NCBI GenBank assembly: GCA_032718475.1
Contig: JAUCBJ010001254.1
Location: forward strand, 1-64,000
Direction of reading: 5' to 3'
Length of the DNA: 64,000 nucleotides
Source: Nemertoderma westbladi
Taxonomy: Eukaryota; Animalia; Xenacoelomorpha
Part shown: piece after piece, positions 3,132-62,828 of the stretch
Position numbering within the stretch: position 1 is the stretch's first letter
Layout: every line of letters starts with the position of its first letter
Program-made: the position numbers and the translations under genes
Notes under the pieces: generated by a model
Seen by the model: the letters and a program-made list of their open reading frames with translations, nothing else
Told to the model about the DNA's origin: nothing
Database searches by the model: none

Positions 3132-3672
3132 TGTGACGGGATCCAGGGGGGATCCCGATTTATCCGATGTGGTAATTTAGTCCACGCGTCCCCGCCGTGT
3201 ATAAGGGTGAAATAGAGTAACTGAGTTCTGAAGTTCGGTGTATAATAATAATAGGGCATAGGATATAGATATAGATATAATGTGTACAAGGCGGGATACG
3301 GTAACTAAAGTCCCGTGATCCCCTAACTAAACTAATTGACTACTAACCTACGCTAGCACTGCTACACTGAGATAACTGAATCACTGATTAATAGGTTATT
3401 GGTTATATTGCACGGTGGCCTTACTGCTACTCAATCGATGCCTTTCCCCCCTCTGATTGGTTAATACCCTTGTTGGCGCCCCGTGGAGTATTCCCGTTCA
3501 CTCCACCTGTTCTCTCTGGGTTAGGGGTTTGGCCCCTGACCCTCTATTGTGTGCTTCCTTCCCACTCTTATTGGGATGGCACGAGTTGGTTAATTGCCCA
3601 ATCTCGTGGCTCCCAATATTGCTTATCGGCTTATAACTTTATGGGGTGTTGGCGGGATTGAATAAGCTAACA
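3132..3672 (-). repeat. 5' LTR of A1
   Basis: tgtgacgggatcc...gaataagctaaca; termini shared with 11979-12549. Confidence 0.85.
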
Positions 3673-10172: not shown

Positions 10173-11978
10173 GTGAGTATGACCTTAGATGAAGACATAC
10201 CACCCGATGTTGCTGTTAGTCCCTGCTGTCATGTAGGGAATGATATTTTAGCCTACATCTGGACTGCCCACACCCGTGCGTTGCACCCCAACTCAATTGC
10301 CACTGTCATTGGGCCGTGGCCAAAGTTTCCAGATGCGCTGCTGAAGGAGGCCAAGTCCCTTCTCTTAGATTTGCTATCATCAGGTTTGGGTAGCTCGAAC
10401 GAGAGGAGAGCTGCTCTTTCGAAACAGAGCTTCGCAAAGAACAGGAAACAAGGTGAGGATATGAGGAAACTTATTGTAAAGGACATCCTAGAGATGTTCG
10501 AATTTCCAGGGTTCCAGTCCTTGGAACTTAGGCCAATTTTCGTTCCATGCAATCTATCTGTTATCCCGTCATTGGGGACCACAGACTCTGATATGCTGTT
10601 CCTTCTAAACATGGTTAGCTCACTCCACGTGGCTGGACCACGTTGTCAGCTCTAGGGGTGCTAGCAATTTAATAACAAATGTATCTGTTGATTATGATCA
10701 ATGCACTTTCGATCATATGCCGGTTGTAACTGACATTAATTTTGCTCCGGGTTATCTATCTTCCCCAGAACCTAATGTGTCTGGAGAGGGCGGTGATTCT
10801 GTGAGAGATAACACTGATTGGGTAAAAAGTGTCTGATTGTGAACGTGAATCGTATTCCAATCTTCTTAATTCTTTATTAAATTCAGTTAATATACCCTTT
10901 GATGCGTTAAATTGTACCAATGGGTTGGGCAATAACTGTAGTGTTCACAAATCTGATATTAACGATTATTATGAGAATGTTATTGCTGCTATGCGTACTG
11001 CCTCTGTAAAAACAATGCCCCAAAAACATCGCAATTATAATAACGGTCCAAAAGTTATTCCCGGCTGGAATGATTTTCAAAAATTTAAATACGATGAATC
11101 TAAAATGTTCTTTAGACTTTGGAAGTCAAATGGCTGCCCTAGATCTGGACCTATGTTTCAGATTTACATTAAAGCTAAATTGGAATTCAAACGGTCACTT
11201 AAGGACTGTAAACGGAATGAACAGCAGATTCGTTCCGATAAAATGGCCCATTCTGTCTATGCTAACAACGCGAATGATTTTTGGCGTAATGTTAAGAGTA
11301 ATTGTTCTACTTGTGTAATAATTATAATGTATATAATTCTACTGTGCCTCTGCCCAGTAAGGTGGGCGATGCTGTAGGTGAGCAGCAAATCTGTGACCTT
11401 TTCAAAGAAAAGTTTTCTGGTTTGTACAATTCTGTAGATAATGATGAATTGAAAGATCATGTTGAGAAGTTGTTTGATTCTGTTGTATTTTCTGATGAGA
11501 TGATTGTATCTGCAGATGAGGTTGTTGACGATGTGTGCAGCAAGCTGTCAACCGGCAAAACAGCTGGTCCGGATGGTTTAGCGCCGAACATTTTAAGTTC
11601 GGCCCTTGCAGTCTTGCAGTACATTTTTCTAAGTTATTTACTACATTTAATGTCCATGGCTTTATCTCACACTCTTTTATTGTGAGTCAGTTAATCCCGT
11701 TAGTAAAGGATAAAAACGGTGATCTTACCGATTTCGATAATTATCGCGCTATTGCTATTGCTAATGTTTCTAGTAAAGTACTTGAGTTAATATATCTCAA
11801 TCGTTTTAAAAGTTTACTACTAACTACTGATTCGCAGTTTGGGTTCAATAAAGAGGGTGTAGGTACTGAACTTGCTGTTGCCACACTGAAAGAAATTATT
11901 CAGTTTTATCTCGATAACGACAGTCCTGTTTACATAGTATATCTTGACTCTTCTAAGGCCTTCGAGCTAATTAATCAT
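10173..11978 (+). mobile_element. Degraded LINE (ORF1 remnant, endonuclease end, RT start) cut by the A2 LTR
   Basis: FDHMPV near 10710, IPGWND, GKTAGPDGL, KDKNGDLTDFDNYRAIAI, QFGF, LDSSKAF. Frameshifts present; ends exactly at the LTR at 11979. Confidence 0.85.
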
Positions 11979-12549
11979 TGTGACGGGATCCACGGAGGAT
12001 CCCGGTTTATCCGGTTTTCAATCTACGCGTCCCCGCCGTGTGTGAAAGGTAAAGAGAGTTATTGATCGCTGTATATAGTTCTCTGGGTATAATAGTATAA
12101 GATATGATATAAGGTATACTGATGATAACACAAAGTATAAGATACAATATTGGATACATGGATGATATACGAAGACGGTAATTGAAGTTCCGGTACTACC
12201 CTAGCTAAACTGACTTACTACATACAAGTGAATGAAATGATTACTGTTCTGATAATATATATTGCACGGTTGGCCGTGTTACTTTACTCAACCGATGCCT
12301 TCCCCCCATTGGCTAATAACCCTGTTGTCGCCCTTTGCCTCCCCTGGAGAGTTTCCCTTCACCTCTGTTACTCTCTCTCTCTCTCTCTCTCTCAGGGGTG
12401 TAACCCCTGACCCTTATTGTGTGTGTGTGTGTGCTTTCTCCTTCCCACTTTGTTGGGGTGACACGAGGTTGATTGCTCACCCTCGTGTTCCCCAATATTG
12501 CTTAACGGCTCACTTTATGGGGTGGTTAGCGGAATTGAATAAGCTAACA
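11979..12549 (-). repeat. 3' LTR of family A copy A2
   Basis: tgtgacgggatcc...aagctaaca; adjacent 12550-12558 reads GGGGGGGAG on the minus strand (polypurine tract). Confidence 0.85.
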
Positions 12550-13291
12550 CTCCCCCCCATGCTATCTTCCCGGTGAGAAGATAGCATCCACCTCTAGTGC
12601 GCTACAATTCCGCTGGATCCCGATCTAGTATCGGGTGTGGGGTGGAACTAGTTTCTTTCGGAGCCGGCTTTCCAGGCCGCTCCCTATGGGTATGATAATG
12701 CTACCCCGTTTGCCTGGCGTCCCGTGTCGGGCCGATCGTGCGCTCCTCCCACACGACTTTTGTTTCCCCAACACTTTCGCCACTCCAACTCCACTCTGTT
12801 CTCACCCTGACCCTCCTCTACTTTTCCTCACTTCGGCTCTAACTCTCGGACTCCCCTGTCCCTTACTCAGCCTCTTATTCCCCCTCCCCCCCACACTTGA
12901 ATTGCGCTCGCACTCTCTCTACACTCCGCACTCTCTCCGCACTACAACTCAACCTCTATCTCGACCACTCACTCCCGACGAGTTTCACCCCCCCCCCCCC
13001 TTTGTGCCGTCGCACTCAAGAAGCGTGATGTCGTCCAATGTCTTGTCCGCGGTAGTATTATAGTCCGTTGGTCCCCAGTCCCAGTAGCTAATTGAGAAAG
13101 GTTATATGACTATAGTACTTACTTCGAATATATATATTTCGTTACTAGATTACTGATTGCTACGTACGTACATACAAATTGCACTTATTCGATTATTTTA
13201 CATTACTTGAATTTGTATTTAAGAGTTCGCACGTCTCGCGTGGTGCCTTCCAGGCATGTTACACCGAAGTCTTAGTTCGTTCCACCAGCCT

Positions 13292-15861
13292 TTAGAACCA
13301 CCTCAAGTCTTTCCCTTTGTCGTCCTCCTCCCTGGGTCGTTTCCTGGTCACTGCTGCTCCTCTGGTCTTGTCTGCTTTCTGGCTTCGGACTCTCGCCGCC
13401 ACCTCCTTACTGATCCCGGTCGTCAACTCCTTGGGTGCCGGTGTTATTAGCTCCCGGTATCGCTTCGCGGGAGGCACCTCCGAGTGGCCCTGTTGTCTCC
13501 CCCTGGTGGCGTCCCATAGGATCATCTTCATTGCCCGCGGCACATGCTCCGCCAAGAAATCCCTAAACTCTCCTCTACTCTGTGGCGTCCACCTATCCAA
13601 ATACCTCTGCGTATTTATCACTCCGGCATATGATGCCGCCATCGCCACTTCCTGGTAGGTAAACGGAAGCCTCCGTTTGATAATCTCCATGTGAGCCTCC
13701 TGATTGATGTTAAAGAAGCCCCACCGGAACTCCTGGGCCTTCATACGCTGCCGAGTCATCGCCCCGACTTCGGCCCACTCCTCGAAGATCCTAAATTTCT
13801 CTTCGTCGTCCATCCAGTCGCACTGGCGTCCATAATGTCCCCGAAAGTTACACTTCGAACATCGGTTATGCAACCGTGGACACGCCCCCATCCTGTGGCT
13901 CGACTCGCAGCAATAGAGACAACTAGTCCCTTTCTGGAACCGGTACAAACAGCTCCTTTCCTGGTGGGTCTGTCTCCCACAGTAGTCGCAGCCGAGTACC
14001 AATGTCTCCCGCCCCACGTCGTCTTTCGTCCCAAGCGATCTCCGTGGTCTGTGGAGTCGCTGGTAAGCGAACTTCCGGACGTTAGTGTCCCTATCTACGT
14101 CGATCTCCTCGCCCCTCTCGGGCATCGTATCCCCGAATACTACCCATGGTGCCGTCCCCAGTTGCTCGCCCAACCTGATAGTGCTCCCCGCGAAATCCAT
14201 CGCCGGCTCCACGTGCACCCAGGCCCGCTTGCCGGGTCTATCCCAGAAGGCCCTCGCCCCACTGGCCGTCACCACCCTCCCGCCAACCCAGTCCGTGTCC
14301 GAGTGGCCGATCCTCCCGATGGGCGGCATCTCTCTGAACTCGTCGTCGTCTTCGTCCTCCTCTGGCAGTGGCTCCAACCCCGGTATCCCGGTGGACCCAC
14401 TATGTCCCTTCCCGCCTTGGCTCTCGCCCATAGCTCTCCATCCCTCTAGCTCCCCTAGCCTCCTTAGCGGCTGGTCGCCCTCGGCGCCCGCTGGTATGGG
14501 CGTCGCTTGCAATCCCGACGTCGACTGTTTCGGTGATCCCACCGTCCATCCCAGTTCTCGCCCTAGAGACTCCCCCGAACTCCCTGACGAAGTCCAACGA
14601 AGTTCGTCTAAGCCCGCCTGTTCCTCGAAGCCGTAGCTCTGTGCCCTAGCTTCCTCCTCCCTTTCCTCTGCTTCTCTCCTCTCCCGTCTAGCGACTTCTT
14701 CCAGTCGCTTCGCCTCTCGTCTATCCATCTCTAGCTGCTCCCATCTCTGATACGGCGTATCTATCTCCCCGTCTACCAGATGTCGGCTGTTGTAGTACAC
14801 TGACTCGCCCTTCAGCCCCGGGTGGTCTACCAGACCCACGAAAGCCGCCTTAAAGGCTCTTCTGTAGTTTAGGGGTGATCCCGATAATAGGAATGCCGCT
14901 GGTTCCCTCTCGATAACCACGGTCATGAATAGGTTAAGCAAACCTATCATTATCCAGTCCTCTGCAGGATATATCGCTACTGATATACCTTTATCGCTCC
15001 TCTTCGGAATTGATATACCTCTTGTTTTCCCGGCCTCGCTCCCCACTTCAGCGAGTTCGCTAATTCTGCTCCGTACTCTTCCCTGAACTTCGCCCAGTCC
15101 ATTGGTTTGTGACATACGAGCCCCAATAGCTGGCCCATCGCCACCGCTCCGCAATGGCCTGTGTTCTCGACTAGTCCCAACCCATCTGGTGCTGTCATAG
15201 CCATGAAGACCGTCTGCATATCCAGGAGGTTGGGGGTGTCCGGACCAATGATTCTCTCCGCGTCATCGCGAATCACCGATCCCACTTTCGTTGTCGACTT
15301 CTCTCTCACTAGGACTTGCACCGCCCTCGGCAACCGGTTTAACTTCGGCCCGTCCTTTTTCCCATACGTTCCCAGGTCAAATAGGAAAATATCCCCATTT
15401 GGCGCGGCCAAATGTAGGAGTATGGTTCTGGCCGATCCCGCCGATCCTCTCCTTGAACCCCCCTTGTCTTCCACGGTCCCTTCGTCGTCTAGGATCATGT
15501 ATCCTCCCCTGTTGACGGACTCTATGAACCTCTTCCAATCTTTCCTCGTTGACTCTCTCACGTACTTTGGAATCCCGAACTTCGCCTCGTCTCCTTTCAC
15601 CACGTAGTGGAAATGCTCGAAGATCGCGTTGTCCAGCGACGGCGTCCCGTAGGTCCCGACCAGCCGCTGTTCGTGCACCTCCCTGAAGTGGTCCTGTAGC
15701 GCTCGCGCTGCGTGACCCTTTTCTAACTGCTCGTAGTATCCCCTCGTCCTCTCTTCCGGATGCCTCTTGGTGAAATCCACCAGTATCTCCTTTCCCCCTA
15801 GCTCCGCCTTTCTCTTTCGCACAAGTTTGCTTGCCATCTCGAACCCTGCCAGATCGCTCAC
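13292..15861 (-). pseudogene. Accessory gene: DnaQ-like DEDDy (WRN/EXD/Mut-7-like) 3'-5' exonuclease + coiled coil + 3 CCHC zinc knuckles
   Basis: ExoI ILDDEG; LLHLAAPNGDIFLFDL; LPRAVQVLV...KVGSVIRDD (ExoII); LLDMQ; LGLVCHK...KWGARP. ExoIII YILQD is restored by removing 2 nt at ~14962 and reading through TAG 14977-14979. Knuckles CDYCGRQTHQERSC, CLYCCESSHRMGAC, CSKCNFRGHYGRQC. Confidence 0.7.
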
Positions 15862-16309
15862 CCTTTGGGTGGTGCCTTACCAAGGCGCTATAGGATGAGT
15901 GATAGGTTTAGATGGTTTATTTCAGTTCGATGGCCTATCTCTCTCTGAATTTCTGAGTTGTCGCCTATTCTTTACACTACTTAATTATGAAGCTACTAAA
16001 TGTACCCTAAATAGCAATTTTGTCCGTTACTTTAATCATATTCCAGAATTTCCTTTTCTACTGTTACCATAATTTGCTAATTTTTAGCCCTATTCTTATT
16101 TTATTTTAATTTAATTTAATTCTACTGTCCTACTACTTACTATTGCCTATGGATTATTCTATTTTATAATCCACATTCTGGCCTATTCTGTGGGCCTGTG
16201 CAGTACAACAGTATGCGTCGCGTGGCCACACGACCCACCCAGCTGCACTCACACGCCCCCCTCCCGCCACTCACTACTGACTAATATCTATACTATATAT
16301 ACCCTTCTA

Positions 16310-16562
16310 CCTCTATCTCTTACTAACTGGTACTACGTACCCTCTTACTAACTTCTAACTCTCTCTAACTAACTAACGGTACTACGTACCCTCTAACTCT
16401 TACTCTCTCTAACTAACGGTACTACGTACCCTCTTACTACTCTAACTCCACTGACTAACGGTACTACATACCCTCTTACTAACCTCTAACTCCACTAACT
16501 AACGGTACTACGTACCCTCTTACAACTCTAACTCCACTAACTAACTAACGGTACTACGTACC
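16310..16562. repeat. Minisatellite (~40-46 bp unit), left part
   Basis: ctaactaacggtactacgtaccctcttactactctaactcca units. Confidence 0.9.
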
Positions 16563-17428
16563 TATAAAGGACATCGCCCGCCTCCTATCCTAACTAATTT
16601 CAAATTTGTCTGTCTGTCTGCATTTGGCTGTTTCGGTTGGTTTGGGAATTCTAAGTCAGTAAGTATAAAAGAAAAAGACGAACAATCCAACTGTCTGACG
16701 AGTGCAAGGTCCAGGATATAATCCACCTAATCTAATTATAACCGAAAAGCTAGGACCTTGACGCTATTCCGGCTAGATAAGGCTTTAGTCCACTACAGTA
16801 CTGGATGATAGATTGGTAAAAGATAAATATATGATAACATAATAATATACTTGCATTTATTTTATTTACAGAGTTAGGTATGGCATATGGTACCGTTACA
16901 TTACATATAATAACTGAATAATAAATCAACTAATCTAGGGTATTGATAAATGACTAAATAATGACTGAATGAGATTAATATTATCGGGCAGTTAATAATA
17001 CCGTATACTTCTGTCTGTTCTTTATAAAATAGTTACCGGTCCCGCACTGTCTTAGGTAATAGTACAATATTATATTACAGGGTATGCAAGCAAAATCTAT
17101 ATCTACATCTAACTATCTAACCATCTAACATCAGAATATTAGTGGGAAAATCCGCACATGTCAGACATGGTGAGTTGAGACTGCCAGACTGCAGACAGCT
17201 TACTGCTGTTGTACTGACTAGCTATTTTACAGCTGTCAGTCAGACTGTTGACTGCATTCTGGTCACGTGGTCAGCTCACGGTCGACTCTTACTAATTAAA
17301 TAATGAAAGTAATTATGTATACTGTATTTATTGCTACGAACTGAAATGTATTATACTGTAGGTTGATTATTTTATACTTATACTATATTATATTAAAATA
17401 TTTGAGTTACGAGGAGATGGTGAACACA
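16563..17428 (-). repeat. 3' LTR of C
   Basis: Direct repeat of 27894-28759, preceded by the PPT on the minus strand. Confidence 0.97.
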
Positions 17429-17990
17429 CTCCTCCGCTGAACTGAGTGAAACTTAGTTCAAAAAAAATCTTGTCACCTCTCATCGTAGCGAATATAAACA
17501 CGCACCAAAAACTAAAATAATAATGATTGAGCCTTCTGCCTGTTTCACTCAAAACGAAAATAATGCACCTCATTAATAAAGTACAAATAGTAATACAAAT
17601 AGTAATAATATATAACTTCAGTCTATTCCATTATAATGTATGTACGGCGACCACCACTTTTAAAATTAAACAATCTAAGCACAATCTCAAGGCTAAAAAA
17701 TATTTTTCGTTACATATTATATAGGGTGTTTCTCCATTACTTATTTCTTCAAATAAAGTATATTAAAAAATCTAGCATAAAGGGTTCTGTAATAAGTTCA
17801 CTTTGTGGATTACTAAGACAAAATAATAATAATTCATTATAGAGACCTCTGGCTCATTAAAATAGTTTCCATACAATTCTGGGTTTACCATAAAGGCGCC
17901 ACAAAAGTGGGTCAAAAGACATGTTAGTTAAACACAAACACTAATAGAAATAATAATAATTAATAATTTACTATTATCGTTTTAGGTACA

Positions 17991-20900
17991 TTACTCGCTG
18001 GTTTTATTTACTGCCTCCACTAATTCCTCTTCCAACAAACAACACCGTTCGATCGACCGTTTAAGTTTTCCACTTGCTGTTTGTAATTCGACAGTTCTAA
18101 CTAGTCCATCATTCCCTGGAAAAACATCACATACTCTCGCTAAATTCCAATCATTTCTCCTATTACTGTCGTCCTTTAATAAAACTAAGTCGCCCTTTCG
18201 GACGTTTCGCGTTACGAATTGGTTTATTTTTCGTTTGTGCAATGTTGGCAGATAGAACTTCTGCCACATATCCCAAAACTCATTGGCACATTCTTGACTA
18301 CGCCTCCACGCCTTTCTTGAGCTCAGGTCTCCCGGATCAGGAGTTTCAAGAGGTAATCCTATACCTCCTCCTACACCGAGAATTTTGTTGGGAGTTATTG
18401 CTGTTATTCCACTAGGGTTATCAGTAACTTGAAATAACGGTCTAGAATTGATGGAATATTGAATCTCCGCAAGTGCTGTTCTCAAAACGTCAAATGTAAC
18501 TGTTTTATTACCAATTGTTGCTGCTAGCGCTTCCTTTGTAGAGCGGACCATACGTTCCCATACACCCCCAGCATGAGGATTAATAGGTGTTATATTCTTC
18601 CATGTTATATTTCTTGCAGCGAGTTCTGATTGGAGTTTATGTTTATTCAAGTCCTTTACAACCTGTGTCAATTCATTATTTGCTCCAATGAAGTTCGATC
18701 CATTGTCGCTGTACATAAGTCTAACATTGCCTCTGGTTGATATGAATCTCCGGTATGCACAAAGAAATGCATCTGTTGACGCGCTTTCAGCGATATCTAA
18801 ATGTACTGCCCTTGTTGAAAGACAAGTAAACAATACTCCATAAACCTTCATCGTTGTTCTTACTCGTTTGCACATTATAGGTCCCCAGTAGTCAACTCCA
18901 CAAGTTTCGAAAGGCAATCCTCCAATTACGAGTCTTTCTCGAGGCAAGTCACCCATTCTTTGTACTAATAATTCAGCATTACGTTTTCTACACACATAAC
19001 ATTTCTTTAGTAAGCGACGTATTCGAGGCCTTGCTTGAACTACCCAATAAGTCTCCCTCAACTTAGCTAGAGTATGATCTTCTCCTTTGTGTAGTATTTT
19101 CCAATGTACATCGTATATTAATGAGTCAATTATCCAAGAATCCTTAGGTATAATTATTGGTTCTTTGTGATCAATAGGTATATCGGCATTTTTAATCCGC
19201 GAATCGATTTTCATAATTCCACTTACTAATTTGGGACACAAAGATTTCAGTTGAGAACTTCCAGAAATAAGTTTATCTTGTGCCAATGTTTCATATTCAT
19301 CGCAATATTTCCTTCTTTGCTCAAAGCCAATAATTCCTCTGGCGCATGAATTACTTTCACTTACAGTTAAAGGAGAGAACTTAACCTTTTCACCTCGCAT
19401 CATTTTAATCCGCCAATCAACTAGTCGACGTATCCATCCCAACTTCCTACATGTATCTGTAAAACTATTGGAATGTGTGAGAAGTTTTTTAACAGATTCC
19501 ATTCCATCATCGTCTGCAGCTATCCAATAACTAACTCCTTTCAAACTTCCTTTGTAACTAATTTCAGCATCCTTTGGTAAATTCAGATGCATTTCGTTTA
19601 TAGGTGGGGTCCAAGTTTCCTCACAATCCTTTAAGAATGCCGGGCCATTCCACCACTTGTCTTCTGCTAATAAATGTTTCGCTGTTAAACCACGACTAAG
19701 GAAATCGGCTGGATTGTCTTTACCTGCACAATGATGCCACTGTTCAACCTCACTTGTCCCCATAATTTCTTGAACTCGATTTGCTACGAACACCTGAAAC
19801 CTATGTTCATTATTAGCTATATATTGAAGAGCCACCATTGAGTCACTCCAGTAATAATGACGAACTCCACATGGGTCTTCTACTAAAGGTAATTCCTTGA
19901 TAATAATTCGTGCGTTTCTAATGGCAATAACAGCTGCTAGAAGTTCAAGACGGGGTACTGTAACTTTCTTCATTGGCGCTACTCTCGCCTTTGACATTAT
20001 GAGTGCGGTTTCAACACATCCATTAAGTGGCTGTCTTCGTAAGTACGATACTGCCCCATAACCTGCTTCTGATGCATCACAAAAATGGTGAATCGAGTAT
20101 ATATCATCGGTATCTCGTGTTTTGAAGAAAGGTCGTGGTATTTGTAATTGTTCTAATCCAATAATATCATCCTTCCAGAGCAACCATTCTTTAATAATAT
20201 CTTTGGGCAGCTTAGCATCCCATGTCAACTTAGCTTTCCACATCTCTCGTAATAGTAATTTTCCTTTCAGGATAAATGGTGTTAGAAATCCTATTGGGTC
20301 ATAGACGGAACTCAAGAGTGATAAACTTCCTCTCTTTGTTAATCTGTAAGTCTCTTTATTAGTTGAGTATGTAAATACATCTTTACTTGGAATCCATTTC
20401 ACTCCTAATGCTCTTGAAGACGAAATCAACATAGAAGAAACACCATCTAGATCTAAGTCTTTGGGGACATCTTGCAAGCCAATGACTTTTTCTTTGGGTA
20501 GGTTTGACAAAAACTCTACACTATTACTTATAAACTTTGTTATATTAAAACCTCGATTATCTAAGCACTTTATAATCCCCATAGCCACTCTCAGGGCCTT
20601 TTCCACCGTTGGTTGAGAATTGAGGCCATCATCAACATAAAAACCATAGAGAATTGCTCTTATCACTTCTATTGAGAAATGTTCTCTTTGGTCCAATGCC
20701 GCTTGTTTTAATCCATAAGTGGCGACACATGGCGAATCCTTCTTTCCAAATGCATGAACCCTCATTTGCATAACTGTGAAGTCATCCAAATTTCCACTCT
20801 CTGGGAAATCCTCAATTGGCCCATCAAACCACAGGATGCGCATAGTATCACTGTCACTGTCTGTAGTCCTTAGCTGATGAAACATCTTCTTAATGTCACA

Positions 20901-21383
20901 CATAAAGCAAATAGAATGACATCGAAATCGCATTAAACAACCAAAAATACTGTTGTAAATATTGGGACCCTGCATAAGCAACTTATTCAAACTCATTCCA
21001 GAATATTCGGCAGCCGCATCATTTACAATTCGAATTTCTCCTGGTTTATTCGCATTTTCGACAAAGTGAGTAGGTAAATAATATGTTCGCGGTGACTCTA
21101 TTAAATCATTTCCTGCTAGAATTCTGGCATGATCATTCTTCAAATACTCATGTAAGTTTTCAACATACAATTTCTCAATCTCAGGTCTTTTAGACAGGCG
21201 TTTCTTTAAACCTTTTAGTCTCTGTATAGCTAATGCTTTGTTGTTTTTTAAACATCTTTCTTTGTCTTTCCACAACATACCTATGGTATAGTGACCATTT
21301 TCGAATGTAATTGTATTTTTCAAAATTTCTAATGACTTAAGATCTTCCTTCGAATAACCGAGTTCGATGTTGTCTACATCCAT
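17991..21383 (-). CDS. pol: Bel/Pao Pol: reverse transcriptase, RNase H, integrase
   Basis: RIVNDAA, CDIKKMFHQ, FYVDD (RT); FCDAS, PRLELLAA, WSDS, NPADFLSRG (RH region); HHCC H..H..CYVC, GVDYWGP, SDNGSNF, WERMV (IN). Confidence 0.97.
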   Translation of the reverse strand: MDVDNIELGYSKEDLKSLEILKNTITFENGHYTIGMLWKDKERCLKNNKALAIQRLKGLKKRLSKRPEIEKLYVENLHEYLKNDHARILAGNDLIESPRTYYLPTHFVENANKPGEIRIVNDAAAEYSGMSLNKLLMQGPNIYNSIFGCLMRFRCHSICFMCDIKKMFHQLRTTDSDSDTMRILWFDGPIEDFPESGNLDDFTVMQMRVHAFGKKDSPCVATYGLKQAALDQREHFSIEVIRAILYGFYVDDGLNSQPTVEKALRVAMGIIKCLDNRGFNITKFISNSVEFLSNLPKEKVIGLQDVPKDLDLDGVSSMLISSSRALGVKWIPSKDVFTYSTNKETYRLTKRGSLSLLSSVYDPIGFLTPFILKGKLLLREMWKAKLTWDAKLPKDIIKEWLLWKDDIIGLEQLQIPRPFFKTRDTDDIYSIHHFCDASEAGYGAVSYLRRQPLNGCVETALIMSKARVAPMKKVTVPRLELLAAVIAIRNARIIIKELPLVEDPCGVRHYYWSDSMVALQYIANNEHRFQVFVANRVQEIMGTSEVEQWHHCAGKDNPADFLSRGLTAKHLLAEDKWWNGPAFLKDCEETWTPPINEMHLNLPKDAEISYKGSLKGVSYWIAADDDGMESVKKLLTHSNSFTDTCRKLGWIRRLVDWRIKMMRGEKVKFSPLTVSESNSCARGIIGFEQRRKYCDEYETLAQDKLISGSSQLKSLCPKLVSGIMKIDSRIKNADIPIDHKEPIIIPKDSWIIDSLIYDVHWKILHKGEDHTLAKLRETYWVVQARPRIRRLLKKCYVCRKRNAELLVQRMGDLPRERLVIGGLPFETCGVDYWGPIMCKRVRTTMKVYGVLFTCLSTRAVHLDIAESASTDAFLCAYRRFISTRGNVRLMYSDNGSNFIGANNELTQVVKDLNKHKLQSELAARNITWKNITPINPHAGGVWERMVRSTKEALAATIGNKTVTFDVLRTALAEIQYSINSRPLFQVTDNPSGITAITPNKILGVGGGIGLPLETPDPGDLSSRKAWRRSQECANEFWDMWQKFYLPTLHKRKINQFVTRNVRKGDLVLLKDDSNRRNDWNLARVCDVFPGNDGLVRTVELQTASGKLKRSIERCCLLEEELVEAVNKTSE

Positions 21384-24300
21384 CCATCCATCATGTCAAC
21401 GTCCCAAAACTCCTTCATGTGATTATCCAAGATTTCATCTTTTCCTCTTTGCAAATCCTTTAATTGTTGTATCAATTCAATCGGAATAGTTTTATGTATT
21501 TCCTCATGAACTAAATATGTGCAATATTGGGCTAATCCTGGACTTGGATAAATTGGACCTAGGGCTGTCCAACCAAAAACTGTCTCGATGGCCACTGGAT
21601 CTATATCACGTGGTCCTGGAACTTCATTCAGATGCCTATGTGCAGCTGGAGTTGTAATACCAATTATTAAAGTTACAGCTGGGATATCAACATCTATAAA
21701 TTCTGGAATATGTCTGAGATGCTGATACTTTTCTCGAGCCTCATCATTTAATTTATATTTCTCAAATTTGACATTGTCTTTAACTAATACATTATTTATT
21801 CTGGTCGAATAATCATATCCTGGCATAATAGCATCAACTATAAGACTAACTTGCCCAACTTTAGTACGCTGGTTATTAGATGTGATTGTAGTCAAACTAA
21901 TTTCAGTTTTCTCAGTTTGCAATTTCAACTCCTTGACCACAATTGTATCTGAAAATGTAAGACTTCCACAAGTATCAATTAATGCATATGTCGTTAATGA
22001 TGCATCCCCTTGACCAACTCCTTTTATTCGAACTGGAACTATCTTCTGCAACAATCTTGTTTGCTGCACTTCTTGAAAGTTGGAAATAACCTTCAGTGAC
22101 GCCTGAATCATGTCCACTGATTTTTGAATTTCGATTTCCTCCCCCGCATTGGCTATTTCCTCATTAGGTCTACCAATTTCGGCTGATTCATTACAGGCTG
22201 TAACATTTAGTTCACATAGCCTCTCAGCGTGAATTGATTCTGCAGAATCATATTTCACTTTATAGTGTCTTGATGCCATATTTGGGCCCCCCGCAGCGCT
22301 AGCACTGCCAATCATGTTAGTAGTGTTAGTAATCAGTTGTGTAGTCGGTGTCGATCTCACACTAAATGCATTACCACAACTAGTCACATGCCCCATTTGT
22401 CCTGTTTGTCCGGGGCTTGTCATGTTACGCACGTACAACTTAGGATCATAACCATGCAATAATGTATGATGACTACCATTACACACATCACACCATATAT
22501 TCCATGGACATTGATACATAATATGGCCCTTATTAGTACACCTATGACACACACCTTCACTCATAAGATAATTACCTCTCTGTACAGTATCTAACTTAGC
22601 TAAGTTCATACAGCGACCTACATGGTGCGTCCTTGCTGTTGGCAAATTTAACACTCTTTCACAATATATACAATTTTTATCTCCTACTACACCTGGTGTT
22701 ATCGCAGTCGTAACTGGTCTCAGTTGTATCTGCCTACCAATATTGTATCCCCTCCCTCGAGGAACTGAACTATTGTACATATTATTGTCTCCCCTACTGG
22801 GCCTATTGTTCCCTATTCGTGCTGGTAAAACAGACCTACTAAAGTCTGGCTGAGAATAGCCACCTCGGCCTGGTTGATAATAATTTGATCTAAAGGCAGC
22901 ACCATTAGACCAATTTGTATATCTAGATTGCCTGTTTAAAGGCATTGACATTTGTCTATTTTGATTGGGTTGTTGTTTAAAATTGCTTGCAGAACTTTTC
23001 ATAGGCTTACCAGCTGGATCCCAAATTTCATGCTCTGCCTCTACACCAAATAATTCATTACACATGGAGTAACTATGCATTTCAATGAATGCTGATAATT
23101 GTACAAGGTCAGGGTCCCGTCCTTTCAGACGTTTAATATTCTCAGCGTGTGGCCTCCATTTATTTTGTATAAAATCTGGTAAGGTCCATAGTGTATTTTG
23201 TACATTTGAGGACAATGTTAAATATTCCTGTGCTCCTATATACTGGAGACAATTTACCATAGACCGAATCATATCTGAGTATCTACGAACATCTTTACCA
23301 GATGCATTGTTTGGGAATTTGGGATGTTCCCTAATTTTCTGTTCACATTTTCGCTGTATTAGAGCTGGATCCCCATAACGTCTAGATAAAAGTCCCCATG
23401 CTCTAACATAGCCATCTGGTGTCCCCCGTAATGGTTTCACTAATGTATATGCTTCACCCTTTAAATGTTTTAATAACAGCTGTAATTTTTCATCCTCACT
23501 CCAATACCTTTTTTGAGCTACATTTTGGACAAATTCTATTTTAAAATTTATGAATTCAATAGGGTCTCCTGCAAATTTCTCATCATCAGAAGGTTGCCAC
23601 ACTGTCTGTCTATCATGAAGTCTTTCAAAATACTCCCTTGTTAAACTATCAATTCCACCACCTCCAAAATAACGTTGATTTGGATTCTGGATCGAATTAT
23701 CTTGTCCTGTGTTTGGGTATCTTCTTTCCCTGTTTGGGTGACCTCTTCTATCATCCCAATCACCATCATCTCCTCCATCAGGTGGTCCACTTCCTCCATC
23801 AGGAGGTCCACTTCCTCTACAAGAGCTATGTGAATTACCGTCATTGAAATCATAATCTCCCCTATATTGTTCGGGATTTCCACCGTTCCTATTATCTCCT
23901 GCTGCTGAATTTCCTGATGGAATCATTCCCCCTTGGAATTCACTAAACCTTTCCACTGGTGCCTTTTCTGGTGCTCGATATGGTCCAGTATGGCAAGCAA
24001 AACCCTCTCCTTTATCTTCATATTGCAGAAAATAAGAAGGGGGTGGTCTCTGAGGAATGTCATTGCTATCAACTGGTGCATAGATCCATTCTGGCTTATC
24101 TGGATGTAACATTTCTTTAAACTTTGCCCCATCTTGCGACTTATATTGATCCATTTCAATCTTCAAAGGATTTCTATTATAAAGGAGATATGGATTCGCC
24201 TCTGGTTGATTAATCCGAGCTAATGGATCATCTTTCCAAATTTCCCGTTCATGGTCTTGCATCATTTTTGTATCCGTAAGAGCTGTTTGTTGTATGGATT

Positions 24301-26815
24301 CGGCTAATAACTCTGTTCGTTGAACTAGCACATCATCATCATCATGTAACGCATAATTACATGCCTCTAAATAATTTTCCTCGTATCGTAAATGACCATA
24401 CTTATCATTAGGTATTTGCTTAGGAATAGCTCTGTCTACCATTGGTTCTTGTGTATCACCACCTGCCACTATTTGGCGAATTGACCTGAGTGGTTGTGCC
24501 TGCTGCTCATCCTTCTCTAAAGCCAAATGATCCATGTTAAATTTAGCAGGTTTATCATTTATTGTGATAGTGTTAGCCCGTGGAATTGGCTCCACATTTA
24601 ATCTACTTCTTGTAAAGTGATCAAACTTGTTACTTAGTTCAAAATATTTTCCATCATTTACTGCTTGTATTTTTAAAAAATCATTTTGTACTCTTTGCAT
24701 TTCCTTTGTAATACTACCTACTATATCTTCAACATGTTCTAAAGCATTAACTGTATGACTCTCTTGTCGATTTTTTAAAATAGGTTCTCTATTGAAAGAG
24801 TTAATATCCATATTGGGATCAAAATGGACATGCAATCTCGGTTGTAAATATGGGGTTGTAGTAGTGACAGGCATCAAAGGCGTTGATGCAGAAGATATGC
24901 CTACATTTAGATCTTCAAAACTGTCATTAAAGTGATAATCATCAAAAAATGTTATCAAACTGCTATTTGAATTTTGTAAGCTACTGGCTTGTTTGTGTAC
25001 ACTGAGAGGCTCTGGATCTCTCTTTTTATTAAAATGTACATTTAATACATCTGAGCCCCTTTGGGATGTTGAAATTTTTGTAGCAACATTAGAACCTGCC
25101 ACACATTGAACCAATCCTACATCACTGCTCAGCCTAGCTGAGGTGCTAATCCCTTGAGTAGTTAGACCTATATCTTGCAAAAAATTTGTATCTAAATTTA
25201 CCATTTCAGAACAAATGGGTCCACTAATACTAACTGCTGGTTCTAATGAATAACCTACATTAACTACCTTTGGTTCATCATCTGTATCTGCTCTGCCTAC
25301 ATTTCTTAATACTGTAATATTATCAAGAGGCTGTGATTCATTGAATAATTCCGGTACATTGATACTACTAATTGCATCTGACACCAGATTATCAATACTG
25401 GTATCGAAATCATCGGCTTCTTGATCCAATTCAGCTGTAGTTGTACTGATTACCTCTCCATGGGTATTTTCATAATATCTTACCCATTGTGCCTCCTCAA
25501 AGTTAAGATTATCGGCTGATATTAATCTATTGACAGTTTCTTCATGCAATCTTCTCCTACTCTCCTCCGCACTGAGCTCAGCTTCCTTCTCTTTATTTAA
25601 ACGCTCTTGTTCCGTTTCTATTTGAGTCAGAGTCCGCTCTTTCTCAATTCTTTGTTCAACTAATGTCTTCTCCAGTGCAGCTTGTTCACTTTCATATCTA
25701 ATCTTCTCTAACTGTTGCCGATTTTCTTCTTCAATTCTCTCTAAGTCCAAACGTTTCTCATTGCAAATTCGTTCCTGCTCTAAACTATTTCTGCGCTTTG
25801 TATTTTCAGCTTCACGTTTTTGGTTTTTCAGCTCCGTTTCTGATATCAAAAGCCTTTCCTGCTGTTGTAAATCAACTTTCAATAACTCATTCTGAAAATT
25901 AATGGCACTACTGCTTGCTCTCCTACCTGCTTCTAATGCCGCTGCTTTCTTTGCTATTTCTAAGTCACTCTTAATTATCTCCCCTTGAAGTGTAGCGTTG
26001 ACTTGAGCAGCTACACGTTCTTTACGGGCCTTCACTCTTAACTCAATAATTCGCTCCATAGTACAGCTGGCCGAACTTCGTGCTGAAGACCTCGACCGTT
26101 TACTACTATGAGATTTACTGCTACCTAAACTACTTGCTACTGATTCATTACATACAGAAATATCTTCTTCAAAATTAACATTCTGAACATAATTGGAGCA
26201 CTTTTCTTGAAGGTCAATTCCTTCCTTTGGTACATCAGGTTCAACTACAAATTCTTGTGCTAAAATGGTCTCCCCCAATCCTAGCACATTCTTATTTACT
26301 ACATCACCTACACTATTATTTATTCCACACCTTTTCTTTAATCTATTCCATGAATTATTAAGTGCATCCTTTTCCTTAGTTTGTGCTGTCACATACTTAG
26401 AATCATCTACTCCTGCTAAACGTACTAGTTCCTGAAAATTAATATGATATGTCTGTAAAGAATGGTCTGTTCTATTTATTATATCTCGTACTTCCTCCAA
26501 TCTGGCATTATCACTAATTCTAGCCGACAACTTGTCTATAACAGATTGGATATGCGTTCGTGAAGTCGTGATAGATCGTTTGAGCTGCTTTACCCGATCC
26601 TGACTCCCCAGGTTGGCCAAACCTCGAGAGCTAGAACGAACATTTTCAGCAACTCTCCGACCATCAAGCGACCCACTATAGCAAGTTCCAGATCGTGTCA
26701 TATGCTTGTCTCGGCATGTTGCACTTGCCTCTGCACCTGCAGGTTGCGAGGTTTGTACAACATTAACTACTGTACTGGTACTGTCAACATTACTTTCTAA
26801 ATCTTTCTGTTCCAT
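21374..26815 (-). CDS. gag: Bel/Pao Gag + aspartic protease (1813 aa)
   Basis: KFAGDPIEF...LKGEA...RYG core; knuckles CHRCTNKGHIMYQC and CDVCNGSHHTLLH; protease ALIDTCGS, LIIG and TVFGWTALGP. Confidence 0.95.
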   Translation of the reverse strand: MEQKDLESNVDSTSTVVNVVQTSQPAGAEASATCRDKHMTRSGTCYSGSLDGRRVAENVRSSSRGLANLGSQDRVKQLKRSITTSRTHIQSVIDKLSARISDNARLEEVRDIINRTDHSLQTYHINFQELVRLAGVDDSKYVTAQTKEKDALNNSWNRLKKRCGINNSVGDVVNKNVLGLGETILAQEFVVEPDVPKEGIDLQEKCSNYVQNVNFEEDISVCNESVASSLGSSKSHSSKRSRSSARSSASCTMERIIELRVKARKERVAAQVNATLQGEIIKSDLEIAKKAAALEAGRRASSSAINFQNELLKVDLQQQERLLISETELKNQKREAENTKRRNSLEQERICNEKRLDLERIEEENRQQLEKIRYESEQAALEKTLVEQRIEKERTLTQIETEQERLNKEKEAELSAEESRRRLHEETVNRLISADNLNFEEAQWVRYYENTHGEVISTTTAELDQEADDFDTSIDNLVSDAISSINVPELFNESQPLDNITVLRNVGRADTDDEPKVVNVGYSLEPAVSISGPICSEMVNLDTNFLQDIGLTTQGISTSARLSSDVGLVQCVAGSNVATKISTSQRGSDVLNVHFNKKRDPEPLSVHKQASSLQNSNSSLITFFDDYHFNDSFEDLNVGISSASTPLMPVTTTTPYLQPRLHVHFDPNMDINSFNREPILKNRQESHTVNALEHVEDIVGSITKEMQRVQNDFLKIQAVNDGKYFELSNKFDHFTRSRLNVEPIPRANTITINDKPAKFNMDHLALEKDEQQAQPLRSIRQIVAGGDTQEPMVDRAIPKQIPNDKYGHLRYEENYLEACNYALHDDDDVLVQRTELLAESIQQTALTDTKMMQDHEREIWKDDPLARINQPEANPYLLYNRNPLKIEMDQYKSQDGAKFKEMLHPDKPEWIYAPVDSNDIPQRPPPSYFLQYEDKGEGFACHTGPYRAPEKAPVERFSEFQGGMIPSGNSAAGDNRNGGNPEQYRGDYDFNDGNSHSSCRGSGPPDGGSGPPDGGDDGDWDDRRGHPNRERRYPNTGQDNSIQNPNQRYFGGGGIDSLTREYFERLHDRQTVWQPSDDEKFAGDPIEFINFKIEFVQNVAQKRYWSEDEKLQLLLKHLKGEAYTLVKPLRGTPDGYVRAWGLLSRRYGDPALIQRKCEQKIREHPKFPNNASGKDVRRYSDMIRSMVNCLQYIGAQEYLTLSSNVQNTLWTLPDFIQNKWRPHAENIKRLKGRDPDLVQLSAFIEMHSYSMCNELFGVEAEHEIWDPAGKPMKSSASNFKQQPNQNRQMSMPLNRQSRYTNWSNGAAFRSNYYQPGRGGYSQPDFSRSVLPARIGNNRPSRGDNNMYNSSVPRGRGYNIGRQIQLRPVTTAITPGVVGDKNCIYCERVLNLPTARTHHVGRCMNLAKLDTVQRGNYLMSEGVCHRCTNKGHIMYQCPWNIWCDVCNGSHHTLLHGYDPKLYVRNMTSPGQTGQMGHVTSCGNAFSVRSTPTTQLITNTTNMIGSASAAGGPNMASRHYKVKYDSAESIHAERLCELNVTACNESAEIGRPNEEIANAGEEIEIQKSVDMIQASLKVISNFQEVQQTRLLQKIVPVRIKGVGQGDASLTTYALIDTCGSLTFSDTIVVKELKLQTEKTEISLTTITSNNQRTKVGQVSLIVDAIMPGYDYSTRINNVLVKDNVKFEKYKLNDEAREKYQHLRHIPEFIDVDIPAVTLIIGITTPAAHRHLNEVPGPRDIDPVAIETVFGWTALGPIYPSPGLAQYCTYLVHEEIHKTIPIELIQQLKDLQRGKDEILDNHMKEFWDVDMMDGWM

Positions 26816-27880
26816 TTTATATCCCTTTGTTATTACAAATTTTATTTATTTATAAATTTTTATTCTTTCTTACTTCTAATTATATATCAGTCTTATGTTC
26901 TATTCCTATCACTTCCTATCTGCCTATTTTAAACAAATATCGTGCTGTAGAGATAAGTCCTTTATATAATTCCTTTCTCCTTTCTGGCTGTCTGGTAAAC
27001 CTACAGTAATATATACCTACCGCTATAACGGCAGAACGGCAATTTCTTTCCTATAATTTATTTAGGCCTAGGCCTATATCTGTACATAATTAATTTCTTG
27101 ATAGGGGTAGGCCTACCAACTAAAGAGAAACAGGCAGACAGGTATTCGTCAACAATGTTCATGTACAAGTTTCCTTCATATATAGTATCGACGGTATATA
27201 TAAAGGCCTACTAAAGGTATCACTGTATCATAATTATAATAAATATTCCGGTCTGTTCAAATTTTATCTGTCAGTCTTTCTGTATTTACTTAGGTAATTG
27301 GTAATAGACGTGTATCTGCCTATCAACAATCCAGTCAAATAAGTTTAGCAATACCGGTATTAAAATTCTGCCTATTACAGTATTACATAAGAAGAAGATC
27401 TGCCATTATAATATATATCATATCATATCATATCATATTCATAAGACAATCAACATTAAATAACAATATTATTCAAATTTCATAAATTACTCAAAATTAG
27501 GCCTAATTACCGGTATCCAAATTCGAACAAAATTAAGCCTACACAAACTGAAAGGCAGAAAAGGTAATCATCAGTACTGAACCGGTATATAATGTACGTA
27601 TATATATATATCATATCATTCTGCCATTACAACATTAAATTCAAAATTTCCAAATATCAACCAATCAATATTATTTACATAGGCTGATAGGCCTAAACAG
27701 CTAAATACTGAAATATGCTGTAACCTACCTACCAACCCATACTGCCATATAAGCCTACCGTTCCATCAGTCTGAAAGTTATATAGCCTAGATCTGTCAGT
27801 CTGTAGACTGGTAGATGACTAGCCTAAAAAGCTGTAGGCCTACAGTCAGACGGTAGGCCCCTAACTACTGAATTAATCCT

Positions 27881-27893
27881 CTAATATTCTGAT
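27881..27893 (-). promoter_or_regulatory. Primer-binding position of C (non-tRNA, complementary to own LTR)
   Basis: Sense ATCAGAATATTAG abuts the 5' LTR and is the exact complement of sense CTAATATTCTGAT at 28461-28473. Confidence 0.75.
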
Positions 27894-28759
27894 TATAAAG
27901 GACATCGCCCGCCTCCTATCCTAACTAATTTCAAATTTGTCTGTCTGTCTGCATTTGGCTGTTTCGGTTGGTTTGGGAATTCTAAGTCAGTAAGTATAAA
28001 AGAAAAAGACGAACAATCCAACTGTCTGACGAGTGCAAGGTCCAGGATATAATCCACCTAATCTAATTATAACCGAAAAGCTAGGACCTTGACGCTATTC
28101 CGGCTAGATAAGGGTTTAGTCCACTACAGTACTGGATGATAGATTGGTAAAAGATAAATATATGATAACATAATAATATACTTGCATTTATTTTATTTAC
28201 AGAGTTAGGTATGGCATATGGTACCGTTACATTACATATAATAACTGAATAATAAATCAACTAATCTAGGGTATTGATAAATGACTAAATAATGACTGAA
28301 TGAGATTAATATTATCGGGCAGTTAATAATACCGTATACTTCTGTCTGTTCTTTATAAAATAGTTACCGGTCCCGCACTGTCTTAGGTAATAGTACAATA
28401 TTATATTACAGGGTATGCAAGCAAAATCTATATCTACGTCTAACTATCTAACCATCTAACATCAGAATATTAGTGGGAAAATCCGCACATGTCAGACATG
28501 GTGAGTTGAGACTGCCAGACTGCAGACAGCTTACTGCTGTTGTACTGACTAGCTATTTTACAGCTGTCAGTCAGACTGTTGACTGCATTCTGGTCACGTG
28601 GTCAGCTCACGGTCGACTCTTACTAATTAAATAATGAAAGTAATTATGTATACTGTATTTATTGCTACGAACTGAAATGTATTATACTGTAGGTTGATTA
28701 TTTTATACTTATACTATATTATATTAAAATATTTGAGTTACGAGGAGATGGTGAACACA
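27894..28759 (-). repeat. 5' LTR of C
   Basis: Direct repeat of 16563-17428; sense termini TGTGTT...TTTATA. Confidence 0.97.
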
Positions 28760-29045
28760 GTACCCTCTTACTACTCTAACTCCACTAACTAACTAACGGT
28801 ACTACGTACCCTCTTACTAACCTCTAACTCCACTAACTAACTAACGGTACTACGTACCCTCTTACTAACTCCTCTAACACTCCTCTTACTACTCTAACTC
28901 CACTAACTAACTAACGGTACTACGTACCCTCTTACTACTCTAACTCCACTAACTAACTAACGGTACTACGTACCCTCTTACTAACCTCTAACTCCACTAA
29001 CTAACTAACGGTACTACGTACCCTCTTACTCTTACTATCTAACTT
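28760..29045. repeat. Minisatellite, right part (same array as 16310-16562)
   Basis: Same unit resumes in register after the TSD. Confidence 0.9.
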
Positions 29046-36569: not shown

Positions 36570-36855
36570 ACTGTGATAATGCGGCGTATGATTTCAAACT
36601 ATAGTTCTATCTATATAATTGTTAACTTTCACAAAAAAAACTGCAATTATCCCAGGGCTTCCTTCCAAATGCCCATGTGTGGGGTGTAGTGTGAAAAAGA
36701 CACTACACTTACGACACATTTTATGGCTTCTTACACAGACACATGAGTGAGGCCCGCAGTAGCCAACCTAGAGCCACGGACACACCCCACAGACATTTGG
36801 AAAACTTTTTTATAACTTTTTCGTTGGGGACAGCTTAGCAAAGTCGGCAATGAGT

Positions 36856-47193: not shown

Positions 47194-47289
47194 CCGCTCC
47201 CAGAAAATGGGATTTTCAGTCTATAAAATATAAAAATCACAGTTTCTAAAACATAAAGATACTCTAAACAGTTAGTCTTTCTTACGCAG

Positions 47290-61298: not shown

Positions 61299-61376
61299 CT
61301 GTTTAGAGTATTTTTATATTTTAGAAACTGGGATTTTTTATATTTTATAGAATTAAATCCCATTTTCTGGGAGCGG

Positions 61377-62548: not shown

Positions 62549-62828
62549 GGTTGGCTGGAGACCTCGGTCCTCGACTCACGTTCCTCTTCACCTCGTGCTC
62601 GTCCATTTTCATCCTCTCCAACCAAACCGCCATTCTTCAGCGAATCCGGTGTGGCGGGCCGGTAACACCTTATCGCCGCCTCCCGAATCGTTGCGTCTCT
62701 GTCACTGGGAGTGCGCTGCAGACTTCTTCCCTTCTCCGAACCCTGGGACGTTGTTGGTTAGCTCATTGTTGTTGGCATGATCTAAACTTGTTGTGGGTGT
62801 TAGTCACAATCTCGAAGTCGGTTTAAAC

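What the first reader, a model, noticed from the sequence alone, without database searches (positions are those of the whole stretch)
13292..15890. LTR element carrying a DEDDy 3'-5' exonuclease fused to three zinc knuckles in the env position
Seen: a sense-strand gene upstream of the A2 PPT/3' LTR whose two overlapping ORFs join into a WRN/EXD-like exonuclease (DxE, D, reconstructed YxxxD), a coiled coil and three CCHC knuckles. An acceptor-like CTCATCCTATAG precedes it at ~15888, suggesting a spliced subgenomic RNA. Established: Mut-7/Nibbler and EXD1 are members of this fold acting in small-RNA/piRNA pathways, and retroviral-type RTs lack proofreading. Inference: a captured nuclease for counter-silencing, cDNA end processing, or trimming of the self-primer 3' end. 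This copy has one stop and one frameshift.
Basis: partly seen in the sequence, partly recalled or inferred. Interest (0 to 1): 0.8.

Follow-up and report, generated by a model that had tools for sequence, protein, structure and literature searches.

The report
Retrotransposon gene: exonuclease plus zinc knuckles
A broken copy of a high-copy jumping gene carries, just before its end repeat, an extra gene that likely encodes a WRN-like end-trimming nuclease joined to three zinc knuckles, predicted to act on RNA; this is a new version of a cargo already described in rotifer retrotransposons.

Summary
The gene is real. On the minus strand an intronless frame of about 850 codons (15837 to 13292) lies in sense before a polypurine tract and a 571-bp TG..CA LTR. 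Its first part is a very divergent DEDDy-type 3'-5' exonuclease domain. Support: 25 of 30 ESM Atlas hits are PF01612/WRN-like at 0.93, and a WRN-like profile was matched or beaten by 1 of 5000 shuffles. Pfam, NCBIfam, PDB and two large protein searches found nothing. A charged coil and three CCHC knuckles follow. Contigs from three samples show a high-copy family in which the stop is private to this copy, and 6 of 6 listed variants shared among copies at the domain's 3' end are synonymous. This copy has no A-type gag-pol or 5' LTR, so 'env position' is inferred. DEDDy cargo is already published for rotifer LTR elements, and exonuclease plus CCHC knuckles exists in trypanosome RNase D. Most likely a knuckle-guided RNA-trimming enzyme that blunts small-RNA silencing (about 40%); function untested. 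New variant of a known kind.

The parts
11979..12549 (-). 3' LTR of element A2 (571 bp, TG..CA), inserted into a LINE-like RT fragment
   Evidence: Aligns with A1 LTR 3133-3672. Flank contigs of X1-X3 stop matching at 11979 and run on 205 letters; six X5 contigs carry differing flanks there.
12550..12558 (-). Polypurine tract directly before the LTR
   Evidence: Sequence
12559..13291 (-). 3' non-coding region between gene and PPT
   Evidence: Sequence; high summed contig depth
13292..14959 (-). Second part of the gene (555 aa): end of the exonuclease helix, charged coil, acidic linker, beta-rich stretch of unknown family, three knuckles, C-terminal region
   Evidence: ESM leads under 0.9 to CCHC proteins; cold-shock idea rejected
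13820..13990 (-). Three C-x2-C-x4-H-x4-C zinc knuckles
   Evidence: Pattern match; Pfam zf-CCHC_4 E 0.041, below cut-off; top PDB sequence hit T. brucei RNase D 7c42, E 0.053
14650..14749 (-). E/R-rich predicted coiled coil (by composition only)
   Evidence: Sequence; no coiled-coil predictor was run
14959..14979 (-). The two breaks of this copy: stop at 14979-14977 and frame change near 14961, both inside ExoIII
14900..15540 (-). Divergent DEDDy/WRN-like 3'-5' exonuclease domain
   Evidence: homolog-guided model pLDDT 67
15541..15837 (-). Start codon and N-terminal ~100 residues of unknown family
15888..15912 (-). Candidate splice acceptor (pyrimidine tract + TAG); untested
   Evidence: Best of 65 YAG sites
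15913..16562 (-). AT-rich spacer and ~44-bp tandem repeats upstream of the gene; the repeats continue at 28760-29030
   Evidence: high contig depth
16563..28759 (-). Younger BEL/Pao element B nested in the repeats (LTRs 99.8% identical, 5-bp target duplication); not part of A2

Best explanation
This is the accessory third gene of a multi-copy LTR element family, encoding a divergent DEDDy-type exonuclease domain, a charged coil and three CCHC knuckles, which likely works as a knuckle-guided 3'-5' RNA-trimming enzyme that helps the element by eroding small silencing RNAs or their precursors. Shown: gene layout, sense position before PPT and LTR, high copy, private stop, synonymous shared variants at the domain's 3' end. 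Supported but weak: the exonuclease homology. Inferred: expression from a spliced subgenomic RNA via the 15888 acceptor; RNA as substrate (from the knuckles, by analogy with T. brucei RNase D, whose CCHC domain gives RNA binding and boosts cleavage); small RNAs as target; benefit to the element. This copy is dead. I put about 0.9 on 'element-borne DEDDy-fold gene' and about 0.4 on the counter-silencing mechanism.
For: ESM Atlas: 25 of 30 hits PF01612/WRN-like, top 0.93, 163-171 shared features, recognition 2535. Profile of 50 bacterial WRN-like domains: E 2.9e-4 for one comparison, 1 of 5000 shuffles as good, best of 245 window ORFs; hhalign E 0.0019 over 80 columns, 1 of 260 shuffles; ExoII segment 1 of 2000 shuffles, and four motif matches in the right order. 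Summed contig depth 13,000-65,000 over the gene against 91-201 in the flank in X1-X3 (not a copy number). Six listed variants shared among copies at 15004-15079 are all third-position and synonymous. No membrane segment (max KD19 1.35), so not an env. Knuckles best match those of TbRND (E 0.053); TbRND trims guide-RNA tails and depletes guide RNAs when overexpressed (PMC7797062, abstract and sections 13, 21). A separate ORF, not fused to pol, and absent from intact neighbour B, suits a host-facing accessory role.
Against: No hit in Pfam, NCBIfam, PDB sequence or the 1.8-billion-protein search (one unrelated hit). An RNase D/Pol I profile does not see it (451 of 1000 shuffles). hhalign probability is only 14%. 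ExoI is not among the top three ungapped matches, and the ExoIII, beta2-3 and SNW matches are each non-significant. The fourth catalytic position is on the break, and MAFFT placed ExoIII ten residues earlier, on a segment with no acid. The selection signal rests on 6 sites from 40 of 1017 listed variant rows; 4 of 5 listed sites shared among copies in the second part are not third-position. No contig links exonuclease and LTR in one piece. Nothing here identifies the substrate. Rodriguez et al. found no clear link between ORF3 and copy number (PMC5408684, discussion).
Confidence: 0.4

Rival explanations
1. The protein is packaged through its knuckles and trims the element's own nucleic-acid ends during reverse transcription: the self-primer, untemplated 3' additions on cDNA, or mismatches (proofreading).
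For: The sequence after the A1 5' LTR pairs with a site inside the LTR (9 nt, 33 of 4000 random), a self-priming signature. Knuckles also resemble retroviral nucleocapsid. WRN-type domains act on DNA (PMC5408684, section 3.3 passage); Dada DNA transposons carry a DEDDy domain proposed to process 3' ends (PMC3706591, passage).
Against: Elements B, C and D show the same signature (13, 11, 12 nt), yet tblastn finds no second exonuclease in the window, and B is young with an open pol and only ~560 bp between pol and LTR. The gene is not fused to pol.
Confidence: 0.25
2. The exonuclease fold is catalytically dead and serves, with coil and knuckles, as an RNA-binding adaptor like EXD1 or Egalitarian, for RNP assembly, transport or sequestering silencing factors.
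For: ExoI and ExoIII fit poorly; one alignment puts ExoIII on an acid-free segment; extreme divergence. Inactive DEDD derivatives act in piRNA biology (PMC5408684, discussion).
Against: D-x-E, the ExoII Asp (aligned to an invariant Asp) and a Tyr at the best ExoIII match are all retained.
Confidence: 0.2
3. A captured host-gene fragment carried passively by a decaying or non-autonomous element, with no function for it.
For: This copy lacks pol and a 5' LTR; other copies show internal deletions (joints); rotifer ORF3s showed no significant departure from neutrality within genomes (PMC5408684, discussion).
Against: Six of six synonymous shared variants; an ~850-codon frame whose stop is private to this copy; no close cellular relative found.
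Confidence: 0.1
4. The N-terminal domain is not a DnaQ-fold exonuclease; the motifs are chance.
For: All curated libraries negative; the alignment-free fold failed (pLDDT 34, no Foldseek match); shuffled proteins reach 0.9 in the Atlas 4-10 times in 100.
Against: The Atlas result and the independent profile test name the same family, with motifs in order.
Confidence: 0.05

Closest known systems
DEDDy-exonuclease ORF3 of bdelloid rotifer Juno and Vesta LTR retrotransposons (Rodriguez, Kenefick, Arkhipova 2017, PMC5408684; read: abstract, introduction, methods, discussion, passages of results)
   Same: DEDDy-type exonuclease as a non-env third ORF of an LTR element; function untested; 3'-end processing and silencing roles were already proposed there.
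   Different: The rotifer ORFs are called RNase D-like and are stated to lack coiled-coil and TM domains; 'CCHC' occurs 0 times in the text. Here the domain scores with WRN-like, not RNase D/Pol I, profiles and is fused to a coil and three knuckles in ~850 residues. No sequence comparison with the rotifer ORFs was made.
Trypanosoma brucei RNase D (TbRND; PDB 7c42; PMC7797062; read: abstract, sections 13 and 21)
   Same: DEDDy-family exonuclease followed by CCHC knuckles; top PDB sequence hit for the knuckle triplet (E 0.053).
   Different: A cellular mitochondrial gene with four fingers close to the catalytic domain; here three knuckles lie ~320 residues downstream. The exonuclease domains show no sequence hit. 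Homology beyond the two common domains is not shown.
WRN / EXD2 / plant WEX-like exonucleases (PF01612)
   Same: Best family by language-model features and profile; ExoII segment clearly of this type.
   Different: About 17-25% identity to bacterial WRN-like domains, below Pfam detection; longer spacing before ExoIII.
Dada DNA transposons of Laccaria and Ectocarpus (PMC3706591; passages) and Athena/Terminon retroelements (PMC6431247; passages)
   Same: Mobile elements with a captured DEDDy exonuclease.
   Different: Not LTR elements; in Dada the domain sits inside the transposase.
BEL/Pao LTR retrotransposons, Belpaoviridae (ICTV profile PMC8742986, whole text)
   Same: Neighbours B, C, D are BEL/Pao by Pfam and share the 5'-end signature with family A.
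   Different: The profile lists gag, pol and sometimes env, and tRNA priming; no exonuclease. Family A's own superfamily could not be determined.

Membership tests
DEDDy 3'-5' exonucleases (PF01612, WRN-like) | Reaches Pfam's curated cut-off | tested here: not met
   0 families at E 0.1 and at E 10
DEDDy 3'-5' exonucleases (PF01612, WRN-like) | Profile-level similarity to family members | tested here: met
   WRN-like profile E 2.9e-4, 1 of 5000 shuffles; Atlas 25 of 30 hits; weak, and the RNase D/Pol I profile was negative
DEDDy 3'-5' exonucleases (PF01612, WRN-like) | ExoI D-x-E | tested here: inconclusive
   D-D-E at 15489-15481 in the expected place, but not among the top three ungapped matches; MAFFT pairs the Glu differently
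DEDDy 3'-5' exonucleases (PF01612, WRN-like) | ExoII Asp | tested here: met
   Segment scores above 1999 of 2000 shuffles; Asp aligns to an invariant column
DEDDy 3'-5' exonucleases (PF01612, WRN-like) | ExoIII Y-x3-D | tested here: inconclusive
   Best match spans the break, with X at the Asp column; 233 of 2000 shuffles as good
DEDDy 3'-5' exonucleases (PF01612, WRN-like) | DnaQ fold | tested here: inconclusive
   Model guided by 42 WRN-like homologs: pLDDT 67, Z 10.6 to RNase D and 10.4 to WRN over ~143 residues, but circular; alignment-free model failed
DEDDy 3'-5' exonucleases (PF01612, WRN-like) | Metal-dependent 3'-5' activity | not testable with these tools
   Needs an assay
Non-env ORF3 cargo of LTR retrotransposons | Sense ORF followed by PPT and 3' LTR | tested here: met
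Non-env ORF3 cargo of LTR retrotransposons | Downstream of the element's own pol | tested here: inconclusive
   No A-type gag, pol or 5' LTR upstream in the window; no genome held
Non-env ORF3 cargo of LTR retrotransposons | Multi-copy with the LTR, at several sites | tested here: met
   High depth in every bin from LTR to spacer, diverged contigs tiling the region, differing flanks at the LTR end; no single contig spans gene and LTR
Envelope glycoproteins | Signal peptide / transmembrane anchor | tested here: not met
   Max 19-residue hydropathy 1.07 and 1.35
Belpaoviridae (for family A) | gag (DUF1759) and PR-RT-RH-IN pol | tested here: inconclusive
   A1's gag-like ORF leaves the window with no Pfam hit and does not match B or C gag
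Belpaoviridae (for family A) | tRNA primer-binding site after the 5' LTR | tested here: inconclusive
   A1 and A3 show 9-10 nt complementary to the LTR itself at that place; no comparison with host tRNAs was possible
TbRND-type RNase D with zinc-finger domain | CCHC fingers C-terminal to the exonuclease | tested here: met
TbRND-type RNase D with zinc-finger domain | Sequence relationship of the exonuclease domain | tested here: not met
   No PDB sequence hit at E 10
Cold-shock domain + CCHC (Lin28-like) | CSD before the knuckles | tested here: not met
   707 of 3000 shuffles as good

The most novel reading that the evidence does not exclude
A self-priming BEL/Pao-type lineage independently assembled a TbRND-like enzyme (WRN-type exonuclease plus CCHC knuckles) and expresses it from a spliced RNA as an element-encoded anti-piRNA/siRNA nuclease, an enzymatic silencing suppressor of an animal retrotransposon.
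Probability: 0.2. Interest if true: 0.8.

Novelty: new variant of a known kind. Interest (0 to 1): 0.5.

Why it matters
DEDDy exonuclease cargo in LTR elements has been known since 2017 but never assigned a function. This version adds RNA-binding knuckles in an architecture whose cellular counterpart (TbRND) is a proven small-RNA trimmer. It sits in a high-copy family with signs of selection, which makes the counter-silencing versus end-processing question directly testable. It also suggests repeated, independent capture of different DEDDy subfamilies by retroelements.

Tried and rejected
No relatives found: word-seeded protein searches for each part, near lengths only; phmmer over 1.8 billion representatives, one unrelated hit over 34 residues; metagenome contigs for each part; plasmids; earlier scan findings by place and sequence. 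These collections are poor in animal transposon proteins, so this does not show absence. No genome is held. No RNA holder was listed; this says nothing on expression. The alignment-free fold was uninformative. The RNase D/Pol I profile was negative; pairwise BLAST with one WRN-like protein gave E 0.33. Rejected: cold-shock domain before the knuckles; env-like membrane protein; that the long second frame codes upstream of the break (variants follow the first frame at 15004-15079); that the 552-aa ORF at 30758-29100 is A-type gag (no match to A1 gag, while A3 gag is 59% identical to A1's); an ordinary host gene (intronless, high-copy, inside element ends). One search was out of frame and timed out; both are ignored. 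Literature: searches gave no paper on an exonuclease-knuckle ORF in LTR elements or an exonuclease in BEL/Pao; 'exonuclease' occurs 0 times in PMC3118150, PMC2774666 and PMC9094657 (term counts only). I recall, unverified, that an exonuclease-like extra domain was noted in a nematode Cer (BEL/Pao) element in papers from about 2000; PMID 10984449 is not held. Subscription papers, Repbase and supplements, including the rotifer paper's, were not seen.

Full report
Observation. The window is a nest of LTR elements and LINE fragments from a eukaryote, probably an invertebrate animal, since three neighbours are BEL/Pao by Pfam and that group is metazoan (PMC8742986). On the minus strand two long frames overlap, 15876-14977 and 15262-13292. 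The first Met is at 15837; there is one stop at 14979-14977 and a frame change near 14961. Read with X at each break the product is about 850 residues: ~100 unassigned residues, an exonuclease-like domain, an E/R-rich coil from 14749, an acidic linker, three C-x2-C-x4-H-x4-C knuckles at 13990, 13921 and 13861, and a ~175-residue tail. About 730 nt after the stop come a polypurine tract (12550-12558) and a 571-bp TG..CA LTR (11979-12549), related to the A1 LTR at 3133-3672 (72% over the best 306-column block).

Is it an exonuclease? Standard searches are blank: Pfam, NCBIfam, PDB sequences, two word-seeded searches and phmmer over 1.8 billion representatives (one unrelated hit). The alignment-free fold failed. 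Two sensitive tests agree, however. The ESM Atlas returned 25 of 30 hits in PF01612-bearing clusters, including 'Werner syndrome-like exonuclease', at 0.93; the family is carried by 11-38% of those clusters' members. A profile of 50 bacterial WRN-like domains (the seed's best PDB hit is WRN) scored the domain at E 2.9e-4, matched or beaten by 1 of 5000 shuffles, and ranked its ORF first of 245 window ORFs. hhalign gave E 0.0019 over 80 columns but only 14% probability. Motif by motif, only ExoII is significant alone (1 of 2000); beta2-3, SNW and ExoIII matches fall in the right order without being significant, and the D-D-E is not a top ExoI match. An RNase D/Pol I profile saw nothing (451 of 1000). 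A model guided by the WRN-like alignment reached pLDDT 67 and matched RNase D, WRN, Nibbler and EXD proteins; this is circular and shows compatibility only. I judge the fold about 90-95% likely and catalytic competence of intact copies open.

Is it cargo of an element family? Contigs of four runs from at most three samples were laid on 11500-17000. Summed depth over the gene is 13,000-65,000 in X1-X3 against 91-201 in the LINE-like flank; this is no copy number but shows a large family, and every bin from LTR to upstream repeats is high. All contigs covering 14979 differ from the window there (17, 28, 18 and 2 contigs), so the stop is private. A length difference near 14961 is listed in 2, 2, 3 and 1 contigs (23-35% of summed depth in X1-X3, all in X5; 165 further indel rows were not shown). 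Flank contigs stop matching at 11979 and run on, and six X5 contigs bear differing flanks there, as expected for insertions at several sites. Only 40 of 1017 variant rows were shown. Among them the six shared variants at 15004-15079 are all third-position and synonymous in the first frame, which fixes the coding frame and hints at purifying selection; of five shared sites listed in the second part, four are not third-position. No listed contig spans both exonuclease and LTR, and a finer look at the variants was not obtained.

What is missing. Upstream lie an AT-rich spacer and tandem repeats, split by the young BEL/Pao element B (5-bp target duplication), then a 552-aa ORF unrelated to A-type gag. 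No A2 5' LTR or pol exists in the window, and no genome is held. So 'env position' is inferred from the 3' end, and family A's superfamily is undetermined, though its neighbours and shared 5'-end signature point to BEL/Pao. The acceptor at 15888 is the best of 65 candidates and lies 50 nt before the Met; splicing is untested.

Mechanism. The protein has no membrane segment and is not an envelope. The knuckles' best PDB sequence match is T. brucei RNase D (E 0.053), itself a DEDDy-family exonuclease with a C-terminal CCHC domain that supplies RNA binding and boosts cleavage of guide-RNA tails (PMC7797062, sections 13 and 21). By that analogy the most likely activity is knuckle-guided RNA trimming, and for a free-standing accessory ORF the most likely benefit is blunting small-RNA silencing (0.4, inferred). 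Processing of the element's own ends (0.25) gains from the self-priming signature at all five 5' LTRs but loses because B has that signature and an open pol without any exonuclease. A dead RNA-binding adaptor (0.2), passive cargo (0.1) and a false fold call (0.05) remain.

Comparison and novelty. DEDDy exonuclease ORF3s are published for rotifer Juno and Vesta LTR elements, with the same functional guesses (PMC5408684), and are cited as a known accessory domain (PMC6338049, passage). Dada transposons and Terminons carry them too (PMC3706591, PMC6431247, passages). Three unchecked notes of this scan report Rrp6-like ORF3s, one with a knuckle, in other genomes; they are leads only. What I did not find in searches is a WRN-like domain fused to a coil and three knuckles, or any exonuclease in BEL/Pao; I recall an unverified older mention for a nematode Cer element that I could not retrieve. 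Verdict: real, new variant of a known kind, interest 0.5.

Noticed in passing
window 3133-3672, 27894-28759, 38455-39632, 56002-57211, 62830-63348: All five 5' LTRs are followed at once by 9-13 nt complementary to a site inside the same LTR (33, 0, 5, 0, 5 of 4000 random 25-mers as good; four 3' LTR controls give 5-7 nt). This resembles Tf1-type self-priming. B, C and D are BEL/Pao, which the ICTV profile describes as tRNA-primed; the listings of searches showed no title on self-priming BEL/Pao. Possibly more novel than the exonuclease.
   Followed up: partly
window 16563-28759: Young, apparently complete BEL/Pao element: LTRs 99.8% identical, ending TG..TA rather than TG..CA, with an 1823-aa gag-protease ORF and an 1134-aa pol ORF.
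   Followed up: partly
window 47200-48800 (-) and 59700-61300 (+): Two related C/D-type elements carry decayed ORF fragments between a deleted pol and the 3' LTR, with no Pfam hit: probably a different accessory gene.
   Followed up: partly
window 29100-30758 (-): 552-aa coiled-coil-rich ORF that ends abruptly at the A2 tandem repeats and matches no other gag in the window; its LTR was not found.
   Followed up: partly
window 37761-38454 and 62549-63348: Remnant of a third A-like element (LTR E 2e-6 to the A profile; gag piece 59% identical to A1's), split by nested C and D insertions.
   Followed up: partly
window 35406-36593 (-): 395-aa ORF with no Pfam hit.
   Followed up: no
window 15024-14962 (-): A 10-residue near-duplication (two V-Y-Q units 30 nt apart) just before ExoIII, which creates two candidate registers for the motif.
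   Followed up: partly
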